Shown here one piece after another: positions 4,320 to 56,228 of a DNA stretch of 62,741 nt. The notes under the pieces were generated by a model. It was not told the DNA's origin. It was given only the letters and a program-made list of their open reading frames with translations, and did not search any database. Made by a program: the position numbers and the translations under genes. The stretch spans positions 1-62,741 of the forward strand of contig QPMI01000663.1 of assembly GCA_004431415.1 (NCBI GenBank). The letters run 5' to 3'. How positions within the stretch are numbered: the first letter of the stretch is position 1; each line of letters starts with the position of its first letter. Source of the stretch: Cyanophora paradoxa CCMP329. Taxonomy: Eukaryota; Plantae; Glaucophyta.

Positions 4320-4354
<35 letters not shown>

Positions 4355-10003: not shown

Positions 10004-11593
10004 GCAGTCTGCACTGACTCGAGCTCTGCAGTGAGTCTGCACTGCGGTACTACGGTAGTCTGCAGCTGGTGCGGCTGCACTCAGTGACCGTCGGACTGCC
10101 GGAGTTAGGGCTGTGGTCGCTGGTGGTCGCTTCGCTCGCGAGGTTCCAGCGGCCGCTACGCTTGGCGTTTTCCGCCAGCGACACCTCCTCGCTCAGCGTT
10201 TTTTATGGCTGACAGGCGCCAAAAAAAGCTCCATCCCGCTTTTTTCTCATCTGAAGGTCGACGTAGGTTGGCCTAGCCGATCAATCTTGCTAAATTTCGA
10301 CTGTTTTCGAGCATCCAGGCGCTCCGCTTCGCCCAAAAGCAGCCTGCAGCTGGCCTCTATCTCGCAGAAATTGACAGATGGCTCGCGGAACTAAGCATTA
10401 AATCTGCATTTGCGTACGCGCGCATCTTAAAAGCTTGTACGAAATAAACTAAACGGAACAGATAGGTTTTCGGTTGGTTTTCAGCAGTTTTTCGACAGGT
10501 TTTGGCGGTACCCCCACCTCAGCGACGGGTCAGCGACGGGCGCCGCTCGCCGGGCTTCAGCGGCCGCTGGGCCCGGCCCCCCCCAGCGAGCACAGCTCTA
10601 GCCGGAGTCTGCCGCACTGCGGCAGGCCCGCAGGCCCCTGAACTCGGAACATGAAGCCCGGCACTGGGCCGGCAGGCCCGCGGGGCCGGCGCGGGCCGCA
10701 GCCTCCCGCAGGCTCCGCAGCCTCGCACTGGCTCGCAGCAACGTCAACTTAATTTGCAAGCCGCCCCAGGCGGCTGGGCCCTTCCGAGGCTCCCTGCAGC
10801 TGCTGGCCTGGCTCCGAGAGGCTCATCACTAGTACTACTACTACGGTACTCAGTGACTGTCGGGCTCTCCGACGTCACGGATCCGGCCGGACTCGTGAGG
10901 AGCGCCCGCCGCCAGCCCCGGGCGCCAGCGAGGCTCGTATACGTATAAGTAGCTATATAGCGAGCCTACCGAGTAGTACCGACCGAACCGTATTCGTACG
11001 ACGCGCGCGGGCATATATATATACGTACCGCAGTACGCGCGCGCGCCTAGGCCTTTCCGAGGCTTCAAAAGTTTCGGCTCAGCGGCCGCCGGGCGCCAGC
11101 CGCGGGCTTAAGCTTCAACATTAAATACAATGCAGGTGCGCGGATTGCGTATGTATTCTTATAATTATGTATACGTATCATAGTATTACGTATACGTATA
11201 CCGGTACCATAGCTCACGTATATGCACATATATGCATTTGCATATATATGTGTATATAAGATATATATATAAGCTTGTATGCGTCCTTTTGCTTTTTTGT
11301 TTTGGAAATTTAGAGGGCCGACCGGCACCGCACCTCTTTTGCATCCGAGTGTTTCGTGCATGCACTAACTGCATTTGCGTGTTGGTGCGGCGCGAACCCA
11401 AATTATCGAGGTTGCCGCCCCCAGCCATTTCCATACATGGCCAAGTTTGGATTTTTTATGTTGGCGCGGCAAGCTCGCTCATGATGCAGCATTCAGAGGG
11501 GTATGCCCCCGTATGTACACTCGCGCGGCGGGCTCTGCTCCTGCTCCCGTCGCGCTGGGGGCGGGCAGGTCGCCGCCGGCGTCCGGCACGCCC

Positions 11594-12525
11594 TCACTCG
11601 TCCGCCCCGCGGATCTTTTTGCGGAGCTGCATATCCTTGGGCTGGATTGTGATGCTGCGCGCCCCCGGCGGTTACGTGCCCCTGCACGGGGCGCTACAGA
11701 GTTTTGGAGGGGGTAGAAGGGGCGGCACACCGCTTGGCATGGATCGCGAGGAGGTTGCTCCCCTCGAACGTCTCGATGGCGTAGCTGCGTCTCGACGATC
11801 AGTTGCAGAGCTCAGCATTTTGTATACTTGTAAATCTCGCGCACTGCTCGGTGGCCTCGCGGAGAGCAAGGACGGCCTGCCGGCACCAGCGAAGAGCGGG
11901 AGTGTCGGTCAGCCTTGCCTCACGAAGCTCTTTCAGGACATCTTCGGTGATCTCCTTGACGGTGCGGGTGAATGGGGCCAGCGCAATGATGGGTTCGGTT
12001 CGCTTCTGCCACTTGCGAATCTCTCTGCGAGCGACGGAGCATCGGATTAATATTCACTGAGCCTCCTGCACTTTAAACTTAGACAACGTCATGATCAATT
12101 GCAACGTACCGGAGGGCAACCGTGCCTCCGCAAAGGCGTGCGCGGTTATAAACAAATCAGATATATAGAGATCTAGAAACATTAAGAATTTAATGATAGT
12201 CACTTTAAAATAGCTATAGTAAGAGATCTAGATCTAGAATGATATCGATCATGATACGATGACATTTGAACCACTTATAGTCACTTTAATTAATTTAGCC
12301 CTTTTGGGTTCAACGGTTACAAGGCTCGCATACTGATCATGATCATGATCATGAACATGAACTCGGACCTGGACGGTAACGGTGAGGCTTCTTGACGCCT
12401 CCTGCGGCAGGAGCCGCTTTACGGGCCGCCTTCGACGCGAGCTTCCGCTCGCCTATGTTTGCGAATCGCTTCCGCGGGGCCTTGCCCCCCGTGCTCTTTT
12501 GCGCCGTGTGCTTTGTCCGTGCCAT
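11594..12525 (-). CDS. Histone H3 variant, 155 aa, 5 exons (12525-12369, 12125-12110, 12024-11845, 11784-11731, 11654-11594); CenH3-like histone fold with a canonical-like tail
   Basis: Spliced translation [155 protein letters not shown]. All four introns are GT-AG and the exon phases are consistent. Confidence 0.93.
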
Positions 12526-12676
12526 CTGGCTATAGTTTGCTTGGGCCGAAAGGCCCTGTGGCCTCGCTGGAGTGCACACGCGCGGGTGCTCTTATTTATA
12601 TATTCGTATACACATATGCATGTACACGGATTTTTTTTGCGTCGTGCATTTTAAACTCATGATCAGAATCAAGAAA

Positions 12677-14708
12677 TCAAGGGGCGTCGGACTCGGATTT
12701 CGAGCCATCGGCGTCCGAGGCCCCCGCGGCCTTGATGCGAAAGACGTTCTTCGGCATGCGAACGAGCGGCTCGCCCTTGCTGTCGACGAGCTTCCTCACG
12801 CGCTCGTCGAGCCGCTTCTCGATCTCCTCGAGCGCCGCCTCGTCGGCGCGCTGCAGGTTGGGGAGAAAGGCGACAAAGTCCGCCGGGCTGACGCCGTCGC
12901 CCACCACGCGCGCGAGGCCCGGGAGGCGCTGCAGGACGCGGGCGCAGGCGGCCAGGTCCGAGTAGGCCTTGGCGCACACCGAGCGCTCCTCGAGGCGGAG
13001 GCCGCAGGCCTCGAGGATGTGGTTGTAGCGCGGCTCGACGCGGTCCCGCCGAAAGTAGCCCCAGCTGCGGGGGTTCCGCCCGTTGGCCTCGACGTAGCGC
13101 TCGTACGCGCCGAGAATGCCCGTCGAGGCGAGGAGGAGGCAGCGGATCCGCTCCCGCCCCGCGTGCTGGGCCCGCAGGAGGAGGGCCCGCCGCGCCGCGG
13201 GGTCCCCGTCGAGCTGGATCCCGACGAGGGCGGCGTCGACGCCGCGCCGCAGCCCCCGCTCGAGCTCGCGGAGGGAGAGCGTCCCCTCGCTCCTCTCCGA
13301 GACCGCCTCTTCCCCCTCGCCGCCCTCGCCGCCGCTACCGCTGCCGGCGCCCTCGTGCTCCGCGTCCGCGTCCGAGCCCGAGTCCGACGTCTCCTCGCCG
13401 TCCCGATCCCGATCGGCCGCCTCGAGCTGGGTCTCGAACTCGGCCCGCTTCTGCTCCTCCCACTCGTTCATCGGCCCGTCCTCGCCGGCGGGCTCGCCTC
13501 CGGATCCACCTCCGCCGCCGCCCGCGCCGGGGGCCTCGGTCTCCTCGCCCTCGCCCTCGCCCTCGCCCGCGCCATCCTCGTCGTCCTCCTCGTCAAAGTC
13601 CTCGCGCTTGCACGTGTAGGCGTCGTAGAGGATGCGCTGCAGCTTCTCGCTTTCCCACGGCGGCCGCCGCTCCGACGAGGCGGGGCGGCGCTGCCGCTTG
13701 GCCGGCGGGCCCTTGGGCGCCTCGATGGCCAGCGGCGGCTCCTCGTCCTCGAGCTCGTCCTTGTCCTCGGCGGCCGCGGGGGCCATGCGCCTCGCGCGCG
13801 TCGCCCGGGCCGCCGGTGCCGGCGCCGGCGCCGGAGCTCCCCCGGCCGCCGCCGCAGAGCTCCCCTCGGCCGCCGTCGAGGCCTGAGAGGCCCCGGCGCG
13901 CCCCGAGCGGCGGGGCGTCGACGCGTTCGAGTCGGCCCCGCCCTTGCGCGCGGGCGCGGGCTGGGCGGCCGAGGGGGAGCCCCCGGCGGGAGGCTCCTGG
14001 GAGGCAGACTCGGCCGCGGGCGCCGCCGGTCCCCTGGACGAAGAGGGCCCCGCCCCGCCGCTCGTCGGGGGCGCGCGGCGGCACGAGGTCAGCGCGGCGA
14101 GCTGGATGGCGCGCGAGACGCCCTCGGCCGCCGTCCAGGACTCGGGGCGCTCGGCCTCGTGGACAAAGGCGCGGTAGGCGAGGTAGCCGTCGACGCGCGA
14201 CGAGGGGACGAGGGCGGAGAGCGTCGGGTGCGGCTCGCTGCACGCGCTCTGGAGCATGGGGCACTCGATCTCGCCCTCTTCGTCCCCGGCCGCGCCCGTG
14301 GGCGCGAGAACCTGCGCAGAAGGGGGCGATGGGCGGACTCCGGGAGCGGGGGGGAAGGTGGGGGTACGGGCGCGGGGGCGGCACCTTGGGGACGCAGGCG
14401 AGGCACACGAGGCCGTGGCGCTGGAGCAGGTGACCCGTCGGCTCGTCGTTGAGGTCGATCGCGCGGTCGAGGTCGCCCCCGCCGGCGAGCTCGGCGATGT
14501 TCCTGGCCAGGCACGCCGGCACGTACGCCGGCGGGAGGAGGCGCTCCGCGGCGCAGACGCTGCACCGGGGGCGCACGTCGAGGTCGAGCCATGCCGAGAT
14601 GTACTTGGGGCGGGCGATCCGCACGGGCCGCGCGTCGATCGGCGGGGCCCCCGATGCTGCCTCCTCCTGGGAGGACGCCGCCTGCTTGCCCTTGGCCTTG
14701 GCCCCCAT
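12677..14708 (-). CDS. Hypothetical protein with N-terminal RING-like Cys/His cluster, acidic low-complexity middle and helical C-terminal domain (at least 1 intron, ~14312-14385)
   Basis: MGAKAKGK...CSVC...HGLVCLAC..K|intron|VLAP...IECPMLQSAC joins ORFs 13593-14708 and 12677-14995. Confidence 0.6.
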
Positions 14709-14999
14709 CGAGACCGCGGGACCCGTGTTCCCGGTACCCTCCCCGCTCGAGTCGAGGGGGGTACGCAGGCCCTTTCAATCCTGCACGCGGGAATGAGACG
14801 GACGGTGTGCGACGTGCAGCCATTTATGAATTCTGGAGCTACACGTCCCGTCTCGCTTTCCTTGGTGCGCACCTGCGAACCGCGCGGCAGCGTCCAAGAG
14901 GCCTGCGTGCGCTCGGTCTCTGGGCCCGACAAGGCCCGTGCACCTCGCGACTCGTTCAAGCGGCGGCAGGCTTGTATCCCCCGTTCACTGCGCATGGTC

Positions 15000-15040
15000 C
15001 CGGAATCGGCCGAGCTCTGGTCGGGGGAGAGGGGAGGGAA

Positions 15041-15076
<36 letters not shown>

Positions 15077-16425
15077 GAAATTAAAACGCGGCTAGGTGCG
15101 GTCTTGTTGAGGTGTACCCGGCCCCTCTCACTTGCCGGATTTGAGAGCGGTTTCCGCTGTACCCTGACCGTACGATACATAGACCTGGAATCGGCCGAGC
15201 TCTGGTCGGGGGGGGGGGGAAGGGGGGTAGAGAGGGTAGAGGGCAAGGCCGCAAGGGTACCAGACGGACAAGCTCAAGGTCACTAAGGCGCCGGTCTCAA
15301 TTGCAACCCCTCGGCCGATTTCAGGTCTAGAGATTTAGAACGGGGTCCAACGAGCCGGGGCTGTACCCCGATTGTGTGGTGCATCTAGACCTGGGGTCGG
15401 CCGAGCTCTGGTCAGTGATCATGAGGGAATCGGAGGGCCGCGCGCGCTGCAGGGGTATAGAGGGGTAGGGTCGAAGGATAACGGTACCCCCCGTCGACGT
15501 CCTCCCCACCCACCCCTTTCCCCCACAAGGCCCGCAGACTACAGGAGATCCAACCAGAGCTCGGCCGATTTCGCGCCCAAAGGGGCAGGGTCGAGAGAGA
15601 GCGTGAAAGAAAACCACTACCCCCTCCATCGCGAGATCGCCACACATAGACCTGGGATCGGCCGAGTTCTGGTCGGCAGGGGAGGGGGTACAAGCGAGAA
15701 ACATAGGACGCAGGTGACGGGTTCGACTCTCGAGCGGATCCCTCCCGAAGAACGGCGCGAAAGACACGAGCAGCCTTCGTGAAAACTCGGCCGGCGCTCG
15801 TCTGGTATCAGCGGGTGTTGCGGAACGTTAACTCATCGGCTGGGGTGCGCGGAAAGAGGACGATCTGCGTATACGTAGCGATCATCGGATAGTAGAGCGT
15901 GAGCGACGCGCGGGCAAGCCTGCAGCTGACTACGCGAGAGATAGGGGCGCGTGAGGAGAAGAGAATCAAAGATCGAAACGTTAATTATAACCGGGGAGAG
16001 CCGAACCTGGAAATTTAAATGCGCCGGCAAAAAAAGGGGCCGACCAGAGCTCGGCCGTTTTCGGCTCCTAGGAGCTGTGCAAGAAGAGATCGGACTCGCA
16101 GCATGGGCGCTGGCCGCCGTCGGGGAGGGAGAGGGGAAAAGAGAGGGGTAGAACCACGCGAGAAAATCAAACGGAGAGCCCCCGGCCCGCGCCCCGACCA
16201 GAGCTCGGCCGATTCCGGGTCCATATGGGGGGGGGGGGGGGGGGGGGGGAAGGAGGAAGGGGGGGGAGGGGGGGGATGCAAGCGCGGTTAGGTGCGGGTC
16301 TCGTTCATTGAAAGACGTACCCTCTCACCCCTTGATGGATTCGAGAGCGGTTTTCCGAGAGCAACCCCTGCCAAGCTGTACCCCTAACCGTGCGCGCGGG
16401 GCGCATATATAGACCTGGGATCGTC
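15000..16425. repeat. Motif cluster 1: ~8 copies of (TAGACCTGGRA)TCGGCCGAGCTCTGGTC in both orientations, with poly-G tracts
   Basis: Forward copies near 15006, 15191, 15397 and 15658; reverse copies near 15311, 15553, 16041 and 16195; partial copy at 16411. G runs at 15041-15075 and 16227-16249. Confidence 0.9.
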
Positions 16426-17024: not shown

Positions 17025-19076
17025 CTAACCTTCCGAGCTCGAAGAGTCGCCATCGGACGAGGAAGACTCGTCCTCCTCCGCCTCGCCGGCGGAATCGGCG
17101 TCGACTTTGAGGTTCTTGCCGAGGGTGAAGACGATGCAGTACCTGCGCACGCGGGTCGCGGGATCAGGGCAGCCGGGGGACGCGCCCGCCGGCGCAGCGA
17201 ACCTAGGATCCGTCTCCCCGTCCACCACCACCTCGTGCTCCAGCAGGTGCCCCTGGCGGAGCGCCGGTTCGTCGCCGGCCGGGAAGAAAGGGGAGAGCGC
17301 CGGCGGGGGCCGGGGCGCTTACTCGGATAAAGACGACGTCTCCGTGTCGCAGGTCGAGGGAGATGCCAAGGGCGGGGAAACGCAGCCGATGCAGCCGCCG
17401 GTCACGGGTGCCGTCGGGGTGAAAGTAGACGAGGGCGGCGTAGGCCTCTTGCGCATCGTTCTTGTCCCGGTGGGACGTCGCGATCCTGGGGGGGAAAGGG
17501 GGGGGGGGGGGGGGGGGGGGAGAGGGAGGAAAGTCGGCATCCAAAGACGTTTTTTTAGGGCGAACTCACGTTTCCGGCGAGTTCATCCACTGCATCGACC
17601 AGAACCCTGCGCGCCCGCAACCGGCGTCGGGCCCGAAAGGGCGGGACGGCGCACGATGGCGGACCGTAATTGTACGGTTGCCGATCGAGGAGGCGAAGCG
17701 CGATCTCCGCCATGTCGCAGCCGGCCTTGACGTCGAAGGCGCAGAGGGCCGGGAACAGGTACTCGAGCACGCCGGCAAAGTACCCGTTCGCGAGGTGCAG
17801 CCGCCGGTTCGCGTTCGTGTCCGTGCCGAACTGCGGGTTCAGCGAGATCTGCAGGAGACCGGGTCGGCTCGCCCGCGCGGGCGGCCCGGGGCGCGGGGCG
17901 CGGGCCGCGCGCGGACCGGAATCGGGACGGACGCGCCCTGGGCCCGCTGGAAGCCGGTGGCGATCCGGGGCCCGCGCTTCTTCTTTGATTCACCGGACTT
18001 GCCCTCGGCGGGGGCCGCTTCCCGGGCCGCGGCGGCCCTCCGCGGCGGGCGCGCCGCTGCGGGGCGCGGGGGCGGCAGGAGCGCCTTCTTCTTGCCTCCG
18101 GGACGCCCGGCGAGCTTCTCCCGCATCACGTCGAGCCGCCCCGTCCGGAGCGCCGCCTCGGCCGCAGCGCGCGCCTCGTCGAGCAGCGTCTGGTCCTGCG
18201 CCGGCGCTCACGTTGCGGTCGCGGGCGGGGGCGCGGGAGGAGGGCGGCCGGCACCCGGGCCTCGTTGTACATGGTGCTGCGGCGGACGGAAAACCTAAAG
18301 GCCGTGGAGGCGCAGGCGACGGCGGCGGCCACCCGCTCGATCCCGGCGCCCTCGCGGAAGAGGCCGGGGAGGTGGACGGCGGCAAGGGCGCCGCTCAGGG
18401 AGATGCAGGCCTGCGCCCCGCGGTCTACGACGTAGTCGTGCCTCGCCTCGTCCTCCTTGGAGCAGCCAGGCGGGAGCGGGGCGACGTAGGCGGCGAACTT
18501 GCCCTGCGGGCGCGTGAGCCGTCGGCGCGGGGACGGGGCGGGACGGGGCGGCGGCGGCACCTCGGCCCGCTGCTTCCGGATGAAACGCGAGTCGACGCCG
18601 CCCCCGAGGAGGTTGCAGGGGAGCACGACGCACCGCTCCGGGGACGTGGCCCACGCCGCCAGCGCCGAGGCGTGCGGCGGTCCGTGCGGCCGTTCGAGCA
18701 GGGCCCCCTCGATCGCGCGGAGGGCGAGCAGGTCGACGGGCGGCGGGTTCAGCCCCAGCTCCGAGCCAAAGTGCTCTGCCAACCGGTCCGGCGGGCCCGT
18801 CATCCCCTCGGGTACTACGCCGAAAGGGAGCTGCGCATGCCGGCGGGGACCGTCGGGGCGCGCGCGCGCGCGCGGGAGAGCGCCCCTTCCGGAGCGCACG
18901 TGCAGGATCTGGCCCCTCCAGCGGACGGGACCGTAGGATCGGTAGCCGTACCGCCTCGTCGCAACGAGCTCGGCGCGCTTGTGGGGGTCTGCGGCGCGCG
19001 TCAGGGCCCCGGGCGCGATGGGGAGGGACGGCGGGGCGAACCATTCGCGCACGCTGGCCCGCCGGGCTTTGAGCAT
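17025..19076 (-). CDS. Multi-exon 2OG-Fe(II) dioxygenase, TET/JBP-like
   Basis: Spliced C-terminus reads ...YNYGFWSMQWMNSPETIATSHRDKNDAQEAYAALVYF...LRFPALGISLDLRHGDVVFIRGHLLEHEVV...RRYCIVFTL. It has HxD (17464-17472), a distal His and a terminal Arg in double-stranded beta-helix spacing. Confidence 0.75.
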
Positions 19077-19267: not shown

Positions 19268-21820
19268 TTATGAACCGAGCACGTGTACAACATAGCTACG
19301 GCTTGCCGTGTCCGCGAGCCGCCCGCAGCATCTCAAGCTTGGCGTGGAGCTCCCGCTGCACCGCCGGATCGCTCGCGCTCTGAGCCGATATCGAATGCAT
19401 TCGCGAGGGGCGAGATGTGAAGAATCGGCAAGACACACCTCGATCTGCTTTACGAGGGACCCCTCGAGCTCCGAGGCCGCCGGCTCCATGACATCCGAGT
19501 CCCGCGCTGGCGTTTGCGGGAGAGGACCGGGTGAGCGGCGAAACGGTCCGGGTGAGGCGTGGGGGGGTGCCCACCGGAAGACGCGTGGTCTTCGTCCTCG
19601 ACGGGCTTGCTGGGACCCGCGGGGGTGGGATCCGCAGGCGTCGGCCTGCGACAGGGCGATCAAAGAAGCGGCGCGGCGCAAGGAGGAGGGCGGCCCCGCC
19701 CACCCGGGAGTCTCCGGAGGGTCCCGGGGATCGTTGGACGTCCCGCCCTCGCCCTCCTCCTTGACGACGGAGGCCAAAGTCTGCCGCGCCTCCTTGATAG
19801 CCTGCCTCCTGCGACTCTCGTGAGAGCTATTCGGGGGGGGGGGGGGGGGGGGGGGGGGGAGCCAAGGGGACGGCTGAGCACAGTTTCGCCACGAGAACGT
19901 CGTTCGGTCGGACCTCCTCCCGCCAGTTTTTCGACCGCATCTGCGTAACGCTGCGGTGGCCGGAATCGGTGGGCGACGAGAGCGGGGGGCGGGGTCGGAG
20001 GCGTACGGGTCGATCGGCGGGAAGCCGAGCGCGCGGGCCAGGAGAACGATGAGGGAGGTGGCGCCGTCGAAGCTGAGGTGGGGAATCTCCGCGAGATGGA
20101 CCTTTCCCCCGAAATGTCGCTCCAGGAACTTGCGCTGCTCTGTCGCGCTCCTCTTGAAAAAGGTGGGCGTCGACCACGTCGCCGTTCTTCGCGAAATGAA
20201 ACGGGGCCCGTCAGTGGCGCGGAGGGAGCACGGGCGCTACGTAAGACCCCGAGACGCGCACGCCGCATCCAGATCGGTCACGTCCTTGCCGTTGATCGTA
20301 CTCCATACCGGTTCGATCTCGGGGAGCCCCCCGTCGCCCGCCTCCTGCGGCCGCCTGACGGAACGCACGGCTTGTCGCCGGCGGGGGCGCGAGGAAACGG
20401 GGCGGGACGCACCGCTCGGCCGCGCGCTCGGGCGAGGATCCATCCGCGGCCGCCGCGTCTCCGACCCTGCGCGGGGATCAGCGGGGGAAAGGTCGAGGCG
20501 CCGCACATCACCGAGGCGGGCACCTTGGGCGCTTGGTACCGTCGGGGCCCGAGGCCGGCGTCGCCTCGCCGCCCCCGGCGGCGCGCTTGCCGGTGGCTTG
20601 CTCCGGCGACGCGACCGTCGGCGGCGGCGCCTCCGGGCTGCGGCGGTGAGCGACGGGGCGACGAGGTCGTGAAGGGCCGGGGGCACGGACCAGTGCTCAA
20701 TGTTGATGCCGCGTGCCCTGCACGCCTCTGCCGTCTCCCTCCGGGCATCGCCAAGGCGCCCCGAGCCGCAGCGCCCCATGCCCAGCTGCGTACGCAGAAC
20801 GTCGAGGGACTTGCGATCGTGAAACGCAGACTTGAGGACGACGAAGGTCCTGCGGCGAGCCGCGGTGAGCACCAGCCGCGCGCCGACGGAGATGGGGAGA
20901 GGAATAGAAGTCTTAGAAGAGGGGTGGGGGGTACCGGGGTGCAGAGGGGTCAACGGGGGTGGCGCCGGGGGCGGCGGCGGCCGGGGCGGGGACGGGGGCG
21001 GCCCCCGCGCCGCGCAGAGCCTCCTGCGCACCAAGGACGCGCTGAACGTCGGCCCGAACCGAGTCCATGCCCAGCTTTCCGCCGGCACCGCGCGGCCAGC
21101 AGAGGTGCACGAACGCGTCCCCGTCCAGCTTCTGCTCCACGGTCGCGTAGACCAGATCGTTCGTCCTGCACTTTTGCACGTACGCGATCTCCGGGAACAG
21201 GTGCCGCGGCCGCCCCGTCCTCTCGTCCACGCCGCATCCCTTGCACGGCGTGCCCGGCATCCCGACGCCGAGCTTGCCGAGGAGCCCGACGAGTCGCGCG
21301 CTCGGCGGGAGCGGTGCGAGGACCTCGAGCGCCTTGGGGGTGCTCAGCACACGGTACGCTGCGCGAGCGGCGTCGGGGGCCCGCGCGGGAGAGGCGGGGG
21401 CGCGTACGCGCGCGCGCGGCGCCGGCGGCCCGGCCGCGGCGCCCTCCCGGCCGCGGCCAGGATACGCACCCAGCGTGACGACGTGGCGGAGCGCTTCGAG
21501 AAACTGCTCAAGCTGCTGCGGCGAAGAGCCGAGCTGCGCTCCGCGCGCCTGCGCATCCGGCCGCGGCCGCGGCCACGGGCGGCGTCATCACAGGTTCAAA
21601 ACGAGCGGTCCGCGCGCGCGTGCGGTGGAAGCGCACCTGTACCGACTGGAGGGTGAGATCCTGCATCGTCTGCAGGTACGCCGCTTTCACGGCCGCCGAG
21701 GACTCGTCGTACGACGCGAACGACTTGAGCTCCGCCGGGAGGCCTAGCACGGCGGCAGGATTGCCCAGGTTGATGCCCCAGAAGTCTCGTGTCGTCCATC
21801 GCCGCCGCCGGCGCCTCACC
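19268..21820 (-). CDS. Multi-exon hypothetical protein
   Basis: Protein-like coding segments (DFWGINLGNPAAVLGLPAELKSF; CKGCGVDERTGRPRHLFPEIAYVQKC; RTFVVLKSAFHDRKSLDVLRTQLG) are separated by gt..cag introns. No family was recognised and the ends are approximate. Confidence 0.5.
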
Positions 21821-21878
21821 CGCGCGCGCGCCGGCCACTGCGCACGATTGGGGGTACGTCGTCGGAACGAGCCGCAGC

Positions 21879-23457
21879 ATGGCGGGCCGCCGGGTCGTGC
21901 AGCGCTGGTTCGACACAGCGTTCATCGTAGCACCGAAGCGATGTCGATTCGTTCGAGCGGGCCCCAGTCCCGTAGAGCTGCTGCAGCAGGAGCCTCAGAC
22001 CTTTGCCGAGGAGGTTCTGAGTCGCATACGGCGGGCCGACCGCGGCCAGTTCGAATCCCTCCACTTGCAATTGGTTGTAGCGACAAAGCGGCGTCGATGC
22101 CAATGGCGCGATTGCCCCCAGTCGACCCGCAAGACTCCCTTCTGCAAGGAGCACCTCGCGAAGCTGAAGGCGAGCACCGCCGTGCATTCGTGCCACTCCC
22201 ACCGTTTCCTTTCCTTACTGACAAAGGTTTAGCTTCGCATTGGCCCCTCCACGGTGTGCGACGGCGAGGGCTTGTTCGCCGAGGCGCTGCCGGAGGAGCT
22301 GGAGGCGGCGGCCGCCAAGGGGCTGCTTCCAACCGAGGTCGAGGTCTTCGGCCCGAACACGCAGTACTTTGTGTGCCTGTACGACGGGTCCGCAGCGCCC
22401 CGCCCCGCCTCAAGCTTGGCGCCCGCGCGGTGCGCCCGCGCCTGACGCGCCGCGCGCTCGCAGGATCTTGGTGACGAACCCGCTCCAGCACTGGTTCGAT
22501 CAGCTGGACGCTACGGGCGAGTGGACGTGAGTGGATGCCCCCCAGCGCCCAGCGCAAAACGTTTGCCCACGCGCGCGGGGGTCGGGCGGGCAGGTTCTGC
22601 TTCAAGATCGACTCTCTCACGTACATCGATGCGGCGCTGCTCAACTTTCTCGGCCGCTTCATCAACTGCGCGTATCCCGACGCGAAGAGGGGCAACGTGC
22701 GGTTCGTGGTGAACACGAGGCGGAAGGAGGTCCTCGTCCGCGCCACCAAGCCGGTCTTCCACCGCCAGGAGGTGCGAAGCCTGCAGGAATTTGCATCTTT
22801 TCGAGTATCTAACGGCACTCGTCCCTTTCCCCGCCGCGCGACCCCCCGAAGCTCATCGCCAAGACCTACGGTGAGCCTCCCCCCTCCCAACCTCCGCCTC
22901 CGCCGCGACCGCGCCTCGGAATCCCTTTGTGACGCGCTCGCGCAGGGGGCGGCTACTTTCCGCGGCTGATGGAGAAGCTCGAGACCGGCAAGCTCTGCCG
23001 GTGCGATTCCCGCGGCGAGGTGCGGATGTCGAACCGCACCGCGCGGGCGAAGCTCCGCGAGGGGTCCTTGAGCACGGAGGAGGACGCTCCCGAGCGCGAG
23101 GGGGGCGACGCCGTGCTCGAGCCCTTCCCTCTCAGCCCTCTCGGCCGGTGGTGGGAGAACCCGCCGAAGCTCCGGCCGCCGCCGAAGCGCAACGCCCCCT
23201 TTGGGGCGCGGCCGAAGAACAAGAAGAAGAAGAAGAACGCGAAGGCGTCCGGCGGCGGGCTCGGCGCGCAGCAGCTGCAGCCGCAGCTCTTTGCCGCCGA
23301 CCCCGAGTCATTCGCGGCCGCGGCCGGCGATCTCGTCCCGCCCCCATCGGGGGGGCCGGCCCTCTTCCTTTCGGGTGCCGGGGCGGAGGTCGCCGCGTTT
23401 TCTTTTCCCGAGGAGATCTCTGTAGACTACGAGATCGAGGGGCACTTCGGGTGCTGA
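21879..23457 (+). CDS. Multi-exon SET-domain protein (putative lysine methyltransferase) with N-terminal C-x4-C-x8-C-x2-H knuckle
   Basis: Spliced: RCQWRDCPQSTRKTPFCKEHLAKLK|LRIGPSTVCDGEGLFAE...CLYDG|...YIDAALLNFLGRFINCAYPDAKRGNVRF...VLVRATKPVFHRQE|LIAKTYG|GGYF...LCRCD. This covers the SET motifs GxGLFA, IDA, RFIN, ELxxxYG and a partial post-SET. Confidence 0.85.
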
Positions 23458-39397: not shown

Positions 39398-40009
39398 TCA
39401 CGCGCTCGGCGCGGCGCCGTTCCGATCGGGCGGGGAGAGCCAGGCGGGGTCGACGAAGCGCGCGCAGAGGGCCCGCGGGAGGGCCGGGTCCAGCCCCGCG
39501 GCGGCCTCGGCGAGCCTCGCCGCGTAGGCCTCGCGCCCGGCCTCGTACAGGCGCCTGTGCGCCGCCGAGAGCGGCACGATCTCGAGGCCCGGGTCGGCGC
39601 GGCAGAGGGGGCACCGGAGCGGCGCGATCGGGAGGATGCAGCCGAGGCAGAAGACGTGCCCGCACCCGAGGCGCGTCGGGCGGCACGGGTGCTGGAGGCA
39701 GACGGCGCACACGGCGTCCTCGGCGAGCGCGGCGCGCGCGGCGGGGCGCCACAGGTTGCTCGCGCACGTCCAGGCGACGTGGGCGGCGCGGCCGACGGCC
39801 TCGTAGCGCGCCAGGGCGCCGGCGTCGCGGGTGGGGTCGCCCCCGGCCGGCGCCTCGACGATCTCGCTCACGATGCGGCTGGACTTGACGCCGAGCGCGA
39901 GCGGCGCGGCGATCACGCCCCGGGCGGCGTCGTAGGCGTGCCCGTCCAGGTACTTCCACCGTCCGAGGTCGTAGGTGCGCTCGGGCGCGGGCGCGGCGGC
40001 AGAGGCCAT
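39398..40009 (-). CDS. C3HC4 RING-finger protein (putative E3 ubiquitin ligase), intronless
   Basis: CAVCLQHPCRPTRLGCGHVFCLGCILPIAPLRCPLCR. Confidence 0.9.
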   Translation of the reverse strand: MASAAAPAPERTYDLGRWKYLDGHAYDAARGVIAAPLALGVKSSRIVSEIVEAPAGGDPTRDAGALARYEAVGRAAHVAWTCASNLWRPAARAALAEDAVCAVCLQHPCRPTRLGCGHVFCLGCILPIAPLRCPLCRADPGLEIVPLSAAHRRLYEAGREAYAARLAEAAAGLDPALPRALCARFVDPAWLSPPDRNGAAPSA

Positions 40010-40298: not shown

Positions 40299-43200
40299 AT
40301 GAAGCGGCCGGCGGACCCCGCCGCCCCCGAGGAGCCCACCTGCGCCCGAACCGGACCGGCACCGCCGCCGGTGCCGTCGCCCCCCAAGGCGGTCGCGGAT
40401 GCAGAGGGCGACCTCGAGATGGAGGACAAGGCGCCGGTGGGCGCGACCGCGCCGCCCTCGGGCGCGCCCCTCCCCGCCCCCGCCGCGAGCCAGATCGTGC
40501 GGACCACGGTCCTCGTCAAGAGCAACCCGCGCAAGGGCGCCGCGCGCGACGCGATCTTTGCCGTCCCCTGGCAGCCCGCCGACGTGGAGAGGCTCGAGTC
40601 GCCGTCCGCGCGCCGCGCCGTCGTCCAGATCTCGCCCCAGATCCTCGTCGAGCACGCGGGCGGCGCCCGGCGCACCCTCCGCGCGTTCAACGTCTTTGAC
40701 TTTGACGTCCCCAACATCCGCTTCCCCGAGGCGCTGGAGGGCGGCTCTCTCGGGAGGGAGCAGCTGAAGAACGCCAAGAAAGAGTACCTCGCCGGCGTGC
40801 TGGCGCGATGCGAGACCCTCGCCCAGTACTGGACCGAGGTCCCCGAGATCCTCGGCGTCGCCCGCCGCGCGCGCGACTTTGCCCGGGCCCTCCAGGCGCG
40901 CGGCGTCGCCGTCCTCGTCGTCTTCTCGGGCCTTAAGGGCTTCCACGTCTACGTGCGCGACGCCGACCTCGTCGCGGCGGTCGAGGGGCCCGGCGCCGCC
41001 GTGTACGCCAAGGAGGACCTCGACCAGTGGTGGGGCATCGTGCGCGCCAAGCTCAAGCGGCTCGAGGAGGACTCGGCGGCGGCGCTGCGCGACCCGTCGG
41101 TCCCGCAGGGGGAGAAGAGCCGCCTCCGCCGCTCCTTCTGGTCCAAGGCCACGCGCGCCGCCGGCCCGCGGCGCGTCCCCGGCATGTACAAGGCGGGACG
41201 GTGGGAGGGGCGCGAGGCCTTTGAGCGCGTCGTCGTCCCGTTTGCGGAGGAGCGCGGGATCGGGGCGATGGTGGAGCAGCTGGAAAGGGAGGGCGTCCTG
41301 GACCTCGCGCCGTTCCGCGTCAACAGCGGCTGCCGCTCCGACGAGCACCGCCACGGCTGGACCTCCTACTACCCCGTGGCGGTACCCCTGGAGGCCGTCG
41401 ACGACGCGGCGATCGCGGCGACGGTCCGCCTGCACGCCACGCGGCCCGACCCGCTCCTCGTCGCGTGGAACAGCGACGAGTGGCGCTGGCTGCGCGAGCT
41501 CGCGCGCGAGATCGCCCCCAAGCACACCCTCCACGTGGCGGCCCCCGCGGACGGCGCCCGCCCTCCGCCGCCCAAGCGCCCGCGCGCCCCCCCGGGCCCC
41601 CGGCCGCCGCCGACGCTCGATCGGGAGGGCGAGGAGGAGGAGGAGGAGGGCGGGGGTGCGGAGGACGGGGACGCCGAGGACGAGGCGACGATCAGCGAGG
41701 GCGTGGTGGAGCGCCTCGGGCTCCTCGCGTGCGGGGCGGGGCGCGGGCGGGGCTGGAGCGCCGCCCCCGGCCGCGGCCGCGGCGGCCGCGGCGGCCCCTC
41801 GATCTCCCACTTTGTTTCGCCGCCCGACGCGGACGGGGGCGAGCTCTGCCCCCACGGGCGGGACCACGAGCGCGTGGAGACGAGCATGTGGGTGGCGGAG
41901 AGCGGCATCCCCGGCGTCCTCGCCGCGACGGCGCACTGCTACTCGCTCCGCTGCGCCGGCGAGCCGCTCCTGGGCGCCCTCGCGTGGGCCCAGCCGGGCG
42001 CCTTTGGCGGCGCCTCGACCCTCGCCCAGGCCGACGCGGCGCTCCTGGGGCTCCACGCCACCGTCGCCCGCATCGCCGACCGGAGCCTCCAGCTTGCGGA
42101 GAGGCTCGCGCGCGCGGCGGCGGCGGCGGCGGCGGCAGAGGCGCAGGCGGCAGCGGCGGCGGCAGAGGGGGAGGGGCAGAGGGGAGGGGGCAGAGGGACG
42201 GGCCCGGAGGACGGCGCGCGCGGGGCGGCGCCGGCGCCGGCCGCCCCGCCCTCCCGCAGCGGCCGGCGGGGGCGCTGCCCCCGTCCGCGTCGCCTCGCAC
42301 GTCGAGGGCCGCTCCTACTTTGTCCGCGTCCCCTGCTGGAGCTGCGGTCACCGCAAGGGGAAGCTCTTCATCGACCAGACGAGCGGGGAGGCCGAGGAGC
42401 GCGGTCAGGTGCGCGTCCGGGCGTGCGGCGCGGCGGCGTGCGGCGGGCGCTGGGCCTGCGGGCCGCTGGAGCTCGGCGAGGACGACGCGACCGAGCTCCG
42501 CCTCGCCGAGGACGAGGTGGACATGTTCTCCCTCCGGCTCTTCCCCGAGCAGGCCAAGTCCATGGGCGCCGGCACCTTTGGCGCGACGGCCCGCAACCCG
42601 TACTGGGCGGAGCTCCCTCAGGGCGCCGTCGACTACCTCGATGCCGTCGTCGCGTGGCTGCGCACGCTCGGCGCCGGCGCGGCGCTCCCCTCCGACGGCG
42701 GCCCCGAGCGGCGCGTCCGGCCCCGCGGCGTCGGGCCCCCGGGCTCCTTTCCCCTCGAGGACGGCGCGACCGGCGGGCCGGCGGCGCGGCTGCACGCCAT
42801 GCTGCCGGACCTCGCGACGTGGCGCGCTGCCCTCCGCCTCCCCGAGCTCTCCCGGCCCCTCGCGATCCCGGCGGACTTTGATCCCGTCGCCCGACGCTGG
42901 ATCGACATCGACGAGCCGGCGGGCCCGGGGGCCCAGCGCTTCTGCAGCCCGGCCCCCATCCTCGCGCGCCTCGACGGCGGGAGGAAGACGATCTTTGTGC
43001 GGGCAGAGACCGGGAGCGGCAAGACGGAGACGTGCGTGGGGGGCCGCGAGGGCGCGGCGGGGCCGGGCCCCCGGGGGATCCTGCAGGCGGTGCTGGACGA
43101 CCCGGCGCTCGTGGGGCTCCCCAGCGTCCCCGGCGCGCCGCCCCGCGTCCTCTACGTGACGGCGGGGCGCGTCCAGCCCGACATCCTCGTCAAGGACCCC

Positions 43201-46200
43201 CGCTTCGCGGCCCTCTCCTACCCCTCGGCGTCGGGCGAGCGCGTGCCGGTCGCCTGGACCGTCTACAAGGAGGCCCGCCCCGAGGAGCTCGCCGACGCCT
43301 CGTTCGTCATGTGCACGGTGCAGAGCGGCCGCCGGCTCGAGGGCGACTTTGACGTCGTCATCGTCGACGAGGGGGCGCGGGCCCTCACGACCCTCACGAC
43401 GGGCGGGCCGTTCAAGGGGCCCGAGCACCACGCGCAGACGGTCGCCTGGTTCGACAGGGCGCTGGAGGCGCCGGCGCTCGTGATCGTCGCCGACGCCGAC
43501 CTGCTGGACGAGGACGCCGCCCTCTACGCCGCGCGCCGCCCGGGGGCGGACGTCATCTCGTACCTCAAGCGCGGCAGCAACGACGCGCGCCTGCGCTGGA
43601 CGGCCATCGACATTCGCTACGCCGCCGCCGTGATCGCCGCCAAGCTCCTCGCCGGCGAGGTCGGCTACATCGCCTGCTCGACGCGGCGCGCCCTCTGGGA
43701 GATCGAGTCCATCGTGCGGCGCCACATGCGGCTCTCCGGGCGCCGCTGCGAGTTCCTGTACGCCGACGCGGACCGGCGCGCGAGGCAGACGATGACGGAC
43801 TCGGACTACGTCTGCTCCGCCCTCTGCTACGCTTCCAACTACGCGATGCCCCAGGGCACCGACTTTTCCAGCGGGCCGCCCGCCAACTTTGTCGCCTACA
43901 TCGAGGAGGGGCGGACCGCCGACGTCAACGCCGGCTTTCAGCTCGTCCGCCGCCGCCGTCACGTGATCGGGCCCGACGCCTTTTTCTTCTGCCGGTTCCC
44001 CCGCAAGGCCCCCCTCCCCGACCGGCAGGGGCGGCCCCTGCACGCCCCCGTCGACTGGCGGGCGATCTACGGCGAGCTGGTGGACTCGGTGCGCGCGTGG
44101 AACGAGCGGCTCCCCGCGGAGAGGCGCGTGGCGACCGAGGAGCACTACCTCCGCGTGCGGGCCGTCCGCACGGCGCTCCGGAACGCGACGCACGCGTGCC
44201 CCATGCTGGCGTTTCACCTGAAGCTCCGCTCGCTCGGCAACGAGGGCCTCTACGTGTACCCCCTGCCCCAGCCCCCGAAGAAGCCCAAGGGCGGCGCGCG
44301 CGCGGGCCCGAGCGCGCCGGCGGCGCCGGCGGCGGGGGGCCTCCCCTGGATGCCGGAGGGGTACTCGGACTCTGCCGTCCCCCTGGCGGCCGAGGTCGAG
44401 GCGCGCGAGCGGCTCCTCCCCATCGTCGCCGCGCCGCGGCTGCTGGGCTACGACTGCGCCAAGGCGATCCGGGGGGCCATGGAGTACGGGACGTCCACGG
44501 TGGAGGTCTCCGACGCGGCGCGGCGCGCCTGGAAGCGCGAAAAGGCCGCCGCGCGCTTCGGGCTGCGGCCCGAGCAGGTGGGCGTCGCCGAGGTCCGCCT
44601 CTCGGAGCAGAGCCCGCCGGCGGAGATCTTCCGCCTCTCCAAGCGGTTCGCCCTCGACACCCTCCCGTACCTCGCCTCGGGGGCGGCCCCCGACGAGGAG
44701 AGCGCGACGCTCCTCCCGGACCACCGCGAGCGGCGCCGCCCCTTTGAGAGCGCCCTGCGGCTCTTTGAGCTGCTCGGCGCGCGCGTCCCGCCCGGCGGCG
44801 GCGCGGCGGCGGCGGCGAGCGACGTCGCGGCCGGCCTCCGTTACCTCTTCTGGGCGACGTGGGAGGGGCCGGAGGACTGCGGCGCGGCGCGCCTGCGCGG
44901 GCTCGGCGAGGCGATCGAGGAGGGTGGCATCTTTACCGACGGGCCCCTCGGGCGGCTCTTTGCAAACGCCTGCCGCGCGGCGTGGGAGCGGATCGCGATC
45001 CCCTACTCGCCGATCGCCGCGTACCGCGCCGACGCCCTCCGCTGGCAGTGCGCCGAGCTCTGGCAGCTCGAGTGCCTCCGCCCGGAGAAGCGCAACAAGG
45101 GGGCCGCCCCTCCCCCGATCGGGGACTGCGCGCGGCGCCTCCTGCACGACCTCGTCGTCCACGCCGCGGAGCAGCTGGGCCTCGGCGTGCTCGTCGCGGC
45201 GGCCGACGCGCGGCGCGTGGTGCGGGGCGGCGCGCGCAGGACCGTCAAGCGCACGCGCTACTGCTTCGACCCCGAGACCGTCCTCCTCGGCCTGCGCCTC
45301 TACGGGCGCGATCGGGACGGCCGCGGGGACGTCCCGCCCGACGCGACGCTCGGGGCGCTCCTGGCGGCCGGCGTGCGCTCCCTCCAGATCGCGCTCGTCC
45401 AGGATCCAAATTCCAAGCTCCGGGCGGCGGGCGCGGGCGGCGGCGGCGGCGAGGGCGGCGAGGGTGGCGCCCCGGGCGCGCCGGCAGAGGCGGGGGCCCG
45501 CCCCCGCCCGAGCGACGCGGCGAAGCGCGTCGTCCGGCTCCTCAAGTCGGGCGTGCACTCGGCGGTCTTCTTCTCCGGGGCGGCGCGCGCGGTCCTCGGC
45601 GAGGACGCCGCCCGCTGCTGGCGCGGGGCCGGCGACGGGGAGGAGGAGGGGGACGGGGCCACCCGCGCGTCGCCCTACGCAGAGGTCCTGGCGCGCGTCG
45701 CCGCCTCCGAGGCCCCGAGGCCCTCGCCCCGATCGCGCCGCCCCTCGGCGCCGGCGCCGACCCGACCGTCGCGGCGCTCTGCGCGCGGGACCTGGCGCGC
45801 GCCGCCCTCGCGATGGACGACGGGGCGGCGCGGGAGGGCCTCGGCTTCCCCGCCGCGGAGGAGTCTCCCGCCCTCCCCACCGAGGACGTGACCTGGCTCC
45901 TCGGTCGCCTCGCCGAGGCCGCCGGCGCCCCCGCCCAGCGCGCCTCGGAGTGGTGCCCCGTCGTGGAGGGGCGGGAGGGGCCGGACCCCTGCGTCGGGTT
46001 TGCGTACACGTCGATCTTTGCGCGGGACCTCCCCCAGGAGCGCCGCACGCTCCCCTCGTCCGGAATCGACGTGGCGCGCACGGGCTCCGACACCTCGGGC
46101 ATCAGCCTCTTCGTGGACGGCGCGGCGCGGCTCCTGCCCGAGGACCTCGCGCGCCCGCGCGTCGCCCGCGGGCCGCGCTCGTGCGGGGCGAAGATGCTCC

Positions 46201-46298
46201 TCTTCGTACCCCGCTCCACCTTTCAGCACTTTGGCGTACCCCTCTTGGCCCTTCCCCTCCGCCCCGCCCCGGCACCTACCCCCGCTCCCCCTGCGTGA
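40299..46298 (+). CDS. ~2000-aa AEP primase(-polymerase) fused to Zn-binding motifs and an SF2 helicase of the herpesvirus UL9/origin-binding-protein type; two apparent frameshifts (~42250, ~45715)
   Basis: AEP motif I VFDFD and motif II FSGLKGFHVYV. CPH...HCYSLRC and CWSCGH...CGAAAC. Walker A IFVRAETGSGKT, Walker B DVVIVDE, and LVIVADADL, GYIACSTR, YASNYAMPQGTDF. Confidence 0.8.
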
Positions 46299-50891: not shown

Positions 50892-51566
50892 ATGTGCCGC
50901 GAGGGCCAGCTGGTCACGACGCGCGACGGGGACGTGGTGTGCGATGCCTGCGGCGCGGCCGAGGCGGTCGTCGGGACCCTGGGGGGCAGCGAGAAGCCGG
51001 GGGCCGACGAGAGCCCGCCCGCGTCGCCCCGCGAGCCCTCGCGGTCCGAGGTCCGCATGGGGCGGCTCCTGGAGGGCGCAGCGTCGGCGCTGGGCCTCGC
51101 CGAGGCGGCGGTCCACGAGGCGCGGCTGCTGCTGGCGGACCGCGGGCTGCTGAGGGGCAGGAAGAGCGAGATTATCGTCGCCGGCGCGCTCTACTACGCG
51201 GCGGCCTCGGCCGGCGCCCCGCGCACCGTCGACGACGCGCTCGGCTGGCACCCCGACCTGCGCACACGCCGCGCGGCGCTCGTCAGGATGGTCCGCGCGA
51301 TCCACCGCCGCCGCGGCGTCGGGCGCATCCCCCGCGCGCCCGACTACGTCGACGCGCTCGCCCAGCGCGTGGGGCTGGACGGGGCGGACCTGCGGGCGGC
51401 GCGGGAGTACGCGGAGCGGCACCGAGACTCGGGAAGGAGCCCGATCGTTGTCGCCGCGGCGGCGTTGGTGGAGGCGGGCGGCGCTTCGACGCGCGAGGCC
51501 GCGCGCGCGGCCGGCATTACGACCGTTGGCATCCAGGTCTGCATCAAGGCGTTCGCCGCCGCCTAG
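50892..51566 (+). CDS. TFIIB-like transcription initiation factor (Zn ribbon + cyclin folds), intronless
   Basis: C..GQLVTTRDGDVVCDACG Zn ribbon; ASALGL...HEA..L...LLRGRKSEIIVAGALYYA...PRTVDD cyclin repeat; second repeat GRSPIVVAAAAL. Confidence 0.82.
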   Translation: MCREGQLVTTRDGDVVCDACGAAEAVVGTLGGSEKPGADESPPASPREPSRSEVRMGRLLEGAASALGLAEAAVHEARLLLADRGLLRGRKSEIIVAGALYYAAASAGAPRTVDDALGWHPDLRTRRAALVRMVRAIHRRRGVGRIPRAPDYVDALAQRVGLDGADLRAAREYAERHRDSGRSPIVVAAAALVEAGGASTREAARAAGITTVGIQVCIKAFAAA

Positions 51567-52388: not shown

Positions 52389-53003
52389 CTAAGCCGCGTC
52401 CGAGGACGGGCTCTCGCCTCCCGCATCGGCGCCCTCGGGGTTGACGTGGACGGCGATCTGCGTGCCGCCGCCGGCGCTCCACTCGGCGGCGAGCTTCTTC
52501 ATGGCTTCGACGCGCTTCGATGCGGATCCGGTGCGCCCCTTGAGCGCCTGCTCGTAACCCTGGGCCAGGCTGCGGTTGGGAAACGGCGCAGCGACGGCGA
52601 GGAGCCGCCAGGGCCCGCGGCTCTTGGTGAACGAGCCGCGGATGGTGCCGCGCGAGTGCTCCTTGAACCGCCGCGCGAGGCTCGCCGTCTCGCCGCAGTA
52701 GAACATCCGGCCGTTGTGCAGCAGGTACACGACGTGCTGCTTCTCAAACTGGTGGTGGAACGGGCGGGCCTTGCCGCCGCCGCCACCGCCGCCGCCGCCG
52801 CCTCCTCCCGCTGCGGCCTTTGCGCCGACGCCGACGCCGCCGTCGCCCCGCTCCCCGTCGGCGCTCCCCTTGTCCGCGTCGGAATTCGAATCCTCGTTCG
52901 TCTCGCCGCCCCCGTCCCGCCGCTCCTGCCGCCCCTCGTCCCCGCCAACGGCGTGCGCAGGCGCCGGTGCGGCCGCGGCCAGCGACGTCGGCTCCGCCTC
53001 CAT
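52389..53003 (-). CDS. GIY-YIG nuclease, SLX1-like
   Basis: HVVYLLHNGRMFYCGETASLARRFKEHSRG..GSFTKSRGPWRLLAVAAPFPNRSLAQGYEQALK. Confidence 0.85.
   Translation of the reverse strand: MEAEPTSLAAAAPAPAHAVGGDEGRQERRDGGGETNEDSNSDADKGSADGERGDGGVGVGAKAAAGGGGGGGGGGGGKARPFHHQFEKQHVVYLLHNGRMFYCGETASLARRFKEHSRGTIRGSFTKSRGPWRLLAVAAPFPNRSLAQGYEQALKGRTGSASKRVEAMKKLAAEWSAGGGTQIAVHVNPEGADAGGESPSSDAA

Positions 53004-56197: not shown

Positions 56198-56228
<31 letters not shown>

What the first reader, a model, noticed from the sequence alone, without database searches (positions are those of the whole stretch)
17025..19076. TET/JBP-like DNA-modifying dioxygenase carried by the element
Seen: spliced motifs F.....N......HxDxxD, fPxLGixxxLxxGDvvF..HLLEH and RxxxVF. 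Knowledge: this pattern fits TET/JBP enzymes, which in fungi and algae travel with KDZ (Kyakuja-Dileera-Zisupton) transposons and oxidise 5mC or T (e.g. Chlamydomonas CMD1). Inference: an anti-silencing or self-marking base modification, here linked to a YR element rather than a KDZ transposase.
Basis: partly seen in the sequence, partly recalled or inferred. Interest (0 to 1): 0.75.

Follow-up and report, generated by a model that had tools for sequence, protein, structure and literature searches.

The report
Altered TET enzyme on algal element
An intron-rich gene of a glaucophyte alga encodes a relative of the TET/JBP DNA-base oxidases and lies inside a 48-kb, likely mobile, virus-like unit with a tyrosine recombinase; it likely erases the host's silencing methyl marks, although its base-binding pocket lacks two residues kept in the four structurally studied TET enzymes.

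Summary
The gene is real: minus strand 19076-17025, nine exons, 508 aa, 479 aa identical to a EukProt Cyanophora paradoxa model. TET/JBP ancestry is well supported: the only hits outside the family among 1.84 billion proteins are two Tet_JBP proteins, and the four TET/JBP structures rank first in a fold search. Fourteen paralogous models lie on 14 contigs; all 11 complete ones keep HxD...H, the 2OG arginine and the base-reading aspartate, but carry Thr and Gly where TET2, NgTet1, CcTet and CMD1 have a stacking aromatic and His/Arg. The gene lies in a 47.9-kb head-to-tail unit with tyrosine recombinase, primase-helicase, TFIIB, a SET-like gene and no capsid detected. A stable TET-recombinase link is not shown: none of 13 other TET contigs had a recombinase hit, and none of 5 other core-gene contigs had a TET, in a search of imperfect sensitivity. 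TET cargo is already reported for fungal transposons, Polinton-like viruses and an algal endogenous giant virus. Best reading: anti-silencing 5mC oxidase (0.55). One earlier scan note paired a recombinase with a TET-like gene on fungal DNA.

The parts
17025..19076 (-). TET/JBP-related dioxygenase gene; exons 19076-18900, 18830-18561, 18503-18255, 18195-17917, 17848-17665, 17606-17570, 17485-17323, 17252-17203, 17142-17025; 508 aa; start codon uncertain
   Evidence: 479 aa identical to P0005
17455..17472 (-). HxDxxD: iron ligands His and Asp, plus the Asp equivalent to NgTet1 D234 / CMD1 D350 / TET2 N1387
   Evidence: residue roles from PMC4678852, PMC7854593
17235..17249 (-). HLLEH: the last His is the distal iron ligand, invariant across the family and 47 viral TET/JBP proteins
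17118..17204 (-). Final strand RYCIVFTLG (split by a 60-nt intron): 2OG Arg and +4 Val kept; Thr at +6 and Gly at +8 replace the stacking aromatic and the His/Arg
19268..21786 (-). Upstream intron-rich gene with a J-domain-like start and a Cys/His cluster (read by eye, no Pfam hit); also lies next to the TET gene in paralog P0013; ends approximate
21846..23454 (+). SET-domain-like gene (weak: one exon matches a Set1 structure at E 0.74; motifs read by eye); ends approximate
   Evidence: no Pfam hit in 44, 115
11276..14880 (.). Start of the 47.9-kb unit; repeated at 59152-62741 with no substitution after the first 9 nt and 19 indels of 1-2 nt
59152..62741 (.). Second copy of the unit's start, cut by the window end; head-to-tail junction 1.2 kb upstream of the recombinase gene
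15005..16213 (.). Cluster of a 15-nt cis repeat next to the TET 3' end; the same repeat clusters at 35.2-36.0, 38.6-39.2 and 49.6-50.5 kb (29 copies in the unit, 0 in the 11.3-kb left flank)
39398..40009 (-). RING-finger gene; near-identical copy on tig00021045
40299..46298 (+). AEP-primase-like region (Pfam DNA_primase_S E 0.02) followed by a helicase with Walker A and DE motifs (SF2-like by eye); frame breaks near 42.2, 45.4 and 45.7 kb
46511..48367 (+). Intronless 618-aa gene with a weak F-box match
50892..51566 (+). TFIIB homologue; near-identical copies on tig00021045
   Evidence: E 5.8e-7; E 2e-11
52392..53003 (-). GIY-YIG endonuclease
   Evidence: E 4.6e-9
53571..57926 (-). Ulp/CE-clan protease fused to a tyrosine recombinase and a zinc finger; five paralogous models elsewhere, 53-71% identical over the queried exon
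   Evidence: (integrase E 4e-4)

Best explanation
The gene encodes a TET/JBP-lineage iron dioxygenase carried as cargo in a 47.9-kb, likely mobile, recombinase and primase-helicase unit, and it likely oxidises 5-methylcytosine in DNA so that the unit would escape the host's CpG-methylation silencing. Shown: gene structure, homology, intact iron triad, 14-copy family with a conserved core, position inside the unit. From literature: the host methylates CpG (32%) on repeats, silent genes and viral genes. Inferred: the unit excises and integrates as a circle through its recombinase; the enzyme is expressed, flips a base, reads its N4 amine with the HxD+5 Asp, and makes up for the lost aromatic and His/Arg with other residues (two conserved Trp and a Gln/His in the strand before HxD are candidates); the SET-like neighbour and TFIIB would act on chromatin and transcription of the same unit. 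The TET gene appears to be an accessory passenger, not a fixed part of the recombinase element.
For: Pfam Tet_JBP is the top family for 9 of 9 models, E 0.1 to 2.3e-4. Atlas: 26 of 30 and 25 of 30 hits Tet_JBP, top score 0.96. HMMER over 1.84 billion proteins: 11 hits, 9 in-family, the other 2 are Tet_JBP. A motif taken from the family retrieved 120 viral loci, 119 with HxDxx[DN] (58, 63); 47 of 47 tested are Tet_JBP; hhalign probability 90.8. Fold: TET2 Z 13.0 (rmsd 4.1, 230 aligned), NgTET1 12.3, CcTet 11.7, CMD1 11.3, next FTO 9.7; Foldseek CcTet E 6e-7. The catalytic core is more conserved (70-77%) than the N-terminal part (48-60%) in the four most distant paralogs compared. Asp at HxD+5 binds 5mC N4 and blocks 6mA in known enzymes. 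Host 5mC. Precedent of an intron-rich viral TET linked to an unmethylated endogenous virus.
Against: The stacking aromatic and the His/Arg are replaced by Thr and Gly in 11 of 11 complete models, while all four solved enzymes keep them and the two nearest outside homologues keep them. All Pfam scores are below the curated cut-off (best 20.9 vs 34.9). JBP thymine hydroxylases also have Asp at HxD+5, and CMD1 keeps the Arg yet does not use 2OG. The fold model is middling (pLDDT 58.9), was made for paralog P0011, and used an alignment with 47 viral TET/JBP rows, which biases it; the family alone gave pLDDT 36. No expression or methylation data were obtained. No co-occurrence of TET and YR outside this copy. 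No CpG depletion anywhere in the window, host flank included, so composition says nothing.
Confidence: 0.55

Rival explanations
1. The enzyme modifies a different target: thymine (JBP-like hydroxylation), an RNA base, or 5mC with an unusual co-substrate or product as in CMD1, marking the element's DNA as self.
For: Family-wide Thr/Gly at two base-contacting positions; changes at TET2 N1387 or H1904 shift activity to thymine (PMC11804724); JBP1 also has the Asp (77); CMD1 shows that algal TETs can change chemistry.
Against: No glycosyltransferase or methyltransferase partner was found in the unit (the Glyco_transf_4 hit overlaps the primase motif and is below cut-off); the host offers abundant 5mC.
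Confidence: 0.25
2. The protein binds iron but no longer turns over a DNA base; it acts as a reader or shield of methylated DNA, or on a small molecule or protein.
For: Loss of the stacking aromatic, judged important in NgTet1; 3 of 14 models lack the catalytic end.
Against: HxD, distal His, Arg and Val are kept in 11 of 11 complete models across 50-95% identity; keeping the whole catalytic set argues for catalysis.
Confidence: 0.1
3. The TET gene belongs to a separate mobile module (with its upstream neighbour and perhaps the SET-like gene) nested in or captured by the recombinase unit, so the YR link is incidental. This concerns the vehicle and is compatible with any of the substrate readings.
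For: 0 of 13 other TET contigs had a YR hit or a >=90% copy of six core genes; 0 of 5 other contigs with YR, RING or TFIIB copies had a TET model. TET and neighbours are intron-rich while the 32-58 kb core is intron-poor. The upstream gene is adjacent to TET in a distant paralog. TET genes move passively between transposons (PMC12730594).
Against: The YR search missed the window's own YR, so its sensitivity is incomplete; the 90% cluster test is borderline for copies 90-97% identical; the element's cis repeat lies 0.8 kb from the TET stop; no terminal inverted repeats or transposase were found around the module.
Confidence: 0.45

Closest known systems
TET/JBP dioxygenases with solved structures (human TET2, NgTet1, CcTet, CMD1)
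   Same: Fold, HxD...H triad, Arg and Val of the last strand, Asp/Asn at HxD+5
   Different: Thr and Gly replace the stacking Phe/Tyr and the His/Arg; about 9-15% structural identity; extra N-terminal region of about 130-190 aa with no match
TET+ DNA transposons of fungi (KDZ, hAT, Harbinger, EnSpm, Plavaka, IS3EU, Helitron; PMC12730594)
   Same: Multicopy TET/JBP cargo in a host that silences repeats with 5mC; nearest outside homologues P0026/P0027 share the GxxLxHxV and RxxxxY/FxH pattern
   Different: Glaucophyte host; no DDE or HUH transposase found; the paper's main text does not mention tyrosine recombinases
Polinton-like viruses with Tet-like genes (GKS2/Alpensee about half, VC40 29%; 10.64898/2026.06.19.733378) and YR-AEP association in polisuviruses (10.64898/2026.10.13.758929)
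   Same: YR, AEP-helicase, cysteine protease, endonuclease and TET in one integrated unit
   Different: No capsid or A32 ATPase detected; 47.9 kb; introns in the TET gene; TFIIB, SET-like and F-box genes; TET clade distinct from the viral JBP-like family (about 12-19% identity)
Punuivirus TET and the transposon-borne TETs of Chlamydomonas (PMC13692296)
   Same: Intron-rich TET (eight introns there too) on an integrated virus-like element, proposed to keep it unmethylated; host TET genes are mobile cargo
   Different: That enzyme is CMD1-like with all functional sites kept and sits in a giant virus; this one has an altered pocket and sits in a 48-kb unit

Membership tests
TET/JBP lineage (homology level) | Double-stranded beta-helix fold closest to TET/JBP structures | tested here: met
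   model of paralog P0011 built with viral TET/JBP rows, so partly biased
TET/JBP lineage (homology level) | Nearest outside homologues are TET/JBP | tested here: met
   (2 of 2)
TET/JBP lineage (homology level) | HxD...H iron triad and Arg at the start of the last strand | tested here: met
   11 of 11 complete models; invariant columns
Pfam Tet_JBP (PF12851) | Gathering score 34.9 bits | tested here: not met
   best 20.9 bits
Canonical 5mC-oxidising TET | Asp/Asn at HxD+5 reading N4 | tested here: met
   Asp in 11 of 11
Canonical 5mC-oxidising TET | Phe/Tyr at Arg+6 stacking the base | tested here: not met
   Thr in 11 of 11; not filed as a canonical TET
Canonical 5mC-oxidising TET | His/Arg at Arg+8 reading N3/O2 | tested here: not met
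   Gly in 11 of 11
Canonical 5mC-oxidising TET | Second Arg (TET2 R1261, NgTet1 R224) | tested here: inconclusive
   A basic residue follows the first helix in most paralogs but the alignment there is poor
Canonical 5mC-oxidising TET | Activity on 5mC DNA | not testable with these tools
   needs an assay
CMD1-type vitamin C enzyme | Trp blocking the 2OG C5 site | not tested
   no CMD1 sequence or model coordinates were at hand; feature from PMC7854593
KDZ or other TET+ cut-and-paste transposon | DDE transposase, terminal inverted repeats, target-site duplication | tested here: inconclusive
   none found, but intron-rich genes were scanned only as unspliced pieces
Polinton-like virus | Major capsid protein and A32 packaging ATPase | tested here: inconclusive
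   no hit in Pfam, PHROGs or NCBIfam; several ORFs remain unassigned and no PLV capsid profiles were available
Polinton-like virus | YR integrase with AEP-helicase replicase | tested here: met
   YR, weak E-values plus motifs; AEP, weak
Phage C5-methyltransferase/TET/glycosyltransferase cassette | Neighbouring methyltransferase or glycosyltransferase | tested here: inconclusive
   none found in the unit; same limit from introns

The most novel reading that the evidence does not exclude
A glaucophyte-specific TET/JBP clade with a rebuilt pocket writes a DNA or RNA base modification not yet known, and it rides a new class of capsid-less, circularising 48-kb eukaryotic elements (tyrosine recombinase, primase-helicase, TFIIB, SET, TET) that bring their own epigenetic and transcription toolkit.
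Probability: 0.2. Interest if true: 0.82.

Novelty: new variant of a known kind. Interest (0 to 1): 0.5.

Why it matters
It extends the TET-as-counter-silencing theme from fungi and green algae to glaucophytes, in a species with published methylome data, so the hypothesis that element-borne TETs keep their carrier unmethylated can be tested on existing reads. The conserved loss of two base-contacting residues makes the enzyme a candidate for new chemistry or a new way to recognise 5mC; the last divergent algal TET studied (CMD1) gave a new base. The carrier unit itself was not matched to a described class here. The concept of TET cargo on mobile or viral DNA is not new.

Tried and rejected
Six trial splice models were out of frame until the donor at 17916 was used. 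A DNA-ligase reading of the upstream gene (KxDG-like motif) was dropped: the motif is not kept in paralog P0013. Direct searches of solved-structure sequences with the exon or the family profile found no TET. Folding with the 12-sequence family alignment failed (pLDDT 36). No relative of the TET family was found in viral or metagenome contigs, nor of the helicase in viral contigs or the YR in metagenomes; the YR query in viral contigs gave two phage loci (35% over 55 aa); the one inspected is an ordinary phage integrase. The best phage tblastn hit (Mufasa8 gp36, E 0.8) is a 117-aa hypothetical gene, not followed up. CpG observed/expected is 1.06-1.33 across the window, uninformative. No whole genome was held, so copies could be compared only through protein models and contig names. 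No RNA or DNA reads were examined. Literature: 'TET'+'JBP'+'Cyanophora' gave 0 papers; 'glaucophyte'+'TET'+'dioxygenase'+'transposon' gave 1, PMC12344493, whose passages seen discuss TET only for Naegleria. Two Iyer et al. papers (PMC3763556, PMC3918813) were not held, and no supplements were read; gene lists in them, or in the 2026 preprints, may already include these proteins.

Full report
Observation. Eight GT-AG introns of 57-84 nt give an open 508-aa frame. The catalytic exon retrieved 9 proteins among 27 candidates, all EukProt models. One, P0005, maps letter for letter on the window with the same eight introns; its accession names Cyanophora paradoxa. Short, frequent introns are normal for that species (mean 86 bp; PMC6704402, passages). 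P0005 is fused to the upstream gene, probably by mis-prediction, so the true start is unsettled. No RNA reads were examined.

The family. and 119/121 give 14 models on 14 different contigs (12 named C. paradoxa by accession, 2 by shared id format), plus two unnamed fragments on a 5.3-kb contig. Eleven of 14 have a complete catalytic end; all 11 keep HxD, Asp at +5, the distal His and RYC[IM]V[FL]TLG. In the four most distant paralogs compared, the core is 70-77% identical to P0005 and the N-terminal part 48-60%, as expected under selection on catalysis.

TET/JBP ancestry. Pfam Tet_JBP is the top family for 9 of 9 models but below the cut-off (E 0.1 to 2.3e-4). The ESM Atlas gave Tet_JBP clusters for 26 of 30 and 25 of 30 hits, top score 0.96, with viral and basidiomycete members. 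An unfiltered HMMER search of 1.84 billion proteins gave 11 hits: 9 in-family and two outsiders, both Tet_JBP (37.1 and 28.9 bits). Profile-profile comparison of the two families gives probability 90.8, E 1.2e-6 over 79 columns. A model of paralog P0011 built with those viral rows (pLDDT 58.9; 75-88 in the core) matches TET2 (Z 13.0, rmsd 4.1, 230 aligned), NgTET1 (12.3), CcTet (11.7) and CMD1 (11.3) ahead of FTO and AlkB (9.7, 9.6) among 48,161 chains; Foldseek ranks CcTet first (E 6e-7). The viral rows bias this model; the family alone did not fold.

The pocket. In TET2, NgTet1, CMD1 and CcTet the last strand runs Arg, aromatic at +6, His/Arg at +8; the aromatic stacks the base and the His/Arg reads N3 or O2, while Asp/Asn at HxD+5 reads N4 and blocks 6mA (passages of PMC4678852, PMC11804724, PMC11040006, PMC7854593, PMC8256090). 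The register is fixed by the viral family and by P0026/P0027. This family keeps the Asp but has Thr at +6 and Gly at +8 in 11 of 11 models. It works like a TET/JBP but fails two pocket features of canonical TETs, so I do not file it as one. Substitutions at these sites can shift TET2 towards thymine, JBP1 shares the Asp, and CMD1 keeps its Arg without using 2OG: the substrate is open.

The carrier. Bases 11276-14880 recur at 59152-62741 (window end) with no substitution after the first 9 nt and 19 indels of 1-2 nt. I infer a 47.9-kb unit in head-to-tail tandem, or a circle that the assembly ran round; the junction lies 1.2 kb upstream of the recombinase gene. The unit holds a protease-YR fusion (integrase profile E 4e-4 for a paralog, catalytic motifs visible), GIY-YIG (E 4.6e-9), TFIIB (E 2e-11), an AEP-like primase and helicase (weak profile hits, motifs by eye), RING, F-box-like and AAA genes, and a SET-like gene next to the TET pair (E 0.74 only). 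A 15-nt cis repeat occurs 29 times in four clusters inside the unit, one 0.8 kb from the TET stop, and 0 times in the 11.3-kb left flank (0-2 in 20 shuffles). No capsid or A32 ATPase was detected in Pfam, PHROGs or NCBIfam; intron-rich genes were scanned only in pieces and several ORFs are unassigned.

Is TET tied to the recombinase? In this copy, yes by position. Elsewhere it was not seen: five YR models lie on four contigs, none with a TET model; of 10 core ORFs looked up, 6 were in the collection and 2 (RING, TFIIB) had near-identical copies, on tig00021045, which has no TET model. None of the 13 other TET contigs appeared in either test. Limits: the YR search missed the window's own YR, and clustering at 90% is borderline for these copies. 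The upstream neighbour gene does travel with TET in a distant paralog. TET is best seen as accessory cargo.

Mechanism. The host has DNMT1 and DNMT3, methylates 32% of CpG, and enriches 5mC on repeats, silent genes and viral genes (PMC12344493, passages and section 9). A TET-like passenger would help an integrated element stay expressed. I put 5mC oxidation for anti-silencing at 0.55, another base or product at 0.25, no base turnover at 0.1. Expression, activity and mobility are all inferred.

Known kinds. TET cargo is described in 11 fungal transposon lineages, none YR-based in the text searched (PMC12730594, parts 1-3 of 7 and passages), in about half of GKS2 Polinton-like viruses (10.64898/2026.06.19.733378, passages), and in punuivirus and Chlamydomonas transposons, where loss of the region with the viral TET goes with methylation of the element (PMC13692296, section 11 and passages). 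YR and AEP genes associate in polisuviruses (10.64898/2026.10.13.758929, passages). My searches found no paper on TET/JBP genes in Cyanophora, but two Iyer et al. surveys were not held and no supplements were read.

Verdict. Observation confirmed; interpretation partly supported. New variant of a known kind: a glaucophyte TET/JBP clade with a rebuilt pocket in an unclassified 48-kb YR unit. Interest 0.5.

Noticed in passing
window 11276-59151: The 47.9-kb unit itself (protease-YR fusion, AEP-helicase, TFIIB, GIY-YIG, RING, F-box-like, no capsid detected) matches no class I could test; related YR genes occur on four other contigs, twice on one contig ten gene models apart.
   Followed up: partly
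window 15005-16213, 35192-35953, 38635-39193, 49615-50548: A 15-nt motif recurs 29 times in both orientations, in 76-nt and 198-nt tandem arrays; candidate replication origins or protein-binding sites of the element.
   Followed up: partly
window 35866-35979 and 38609-38712: Inverted repeats flank a 2.7-kb segment with two intronless unknown genes; could be an invertible or nested segment.
   Followed up: no
window 21846-23454 (+): SET-domain-like gene beside the TET pair, with Cys where SET enzymes usually have His after the conserved Asn (comparison with the Set1 alignment).
   Followed up: partly
window 26000-31700 (+): Lower-GC, intron-rich block with a classical AAA ATPase gene (Pfam AAA E 5.9e-6) inside the unit; may be captured host DNA or a nested insertion.
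   Followed up: no
window 4000-11275: Low-GC island (47-63%) with intronless membrane-protein-like ORFs and a 55-nt hairpin at 9879-10003, between a GC-rich host gene (AAA_16, 1-4 kb) and the unit.
   Followed up: no
window 42150-42280, 45400-45415, 45710, 57670-57840: Frame breaks in the primase-helicase and in the start of the YR gene; long-read errors or decay, not resolved.
   Followed up: no
P0012 residues 1-30: This TET paralog's model begins with a stretch resembling the end of histone H3 (recalled resemblance, not tested), suggesting a histone-like neighbour at that copy.
   Followed up: no
L002-L121: At least 120 viral contigs, many from giant-virus assemblies, carry JBP-like TET/JBP genes ending in RxSxVxYxR.
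   Followed up: partly
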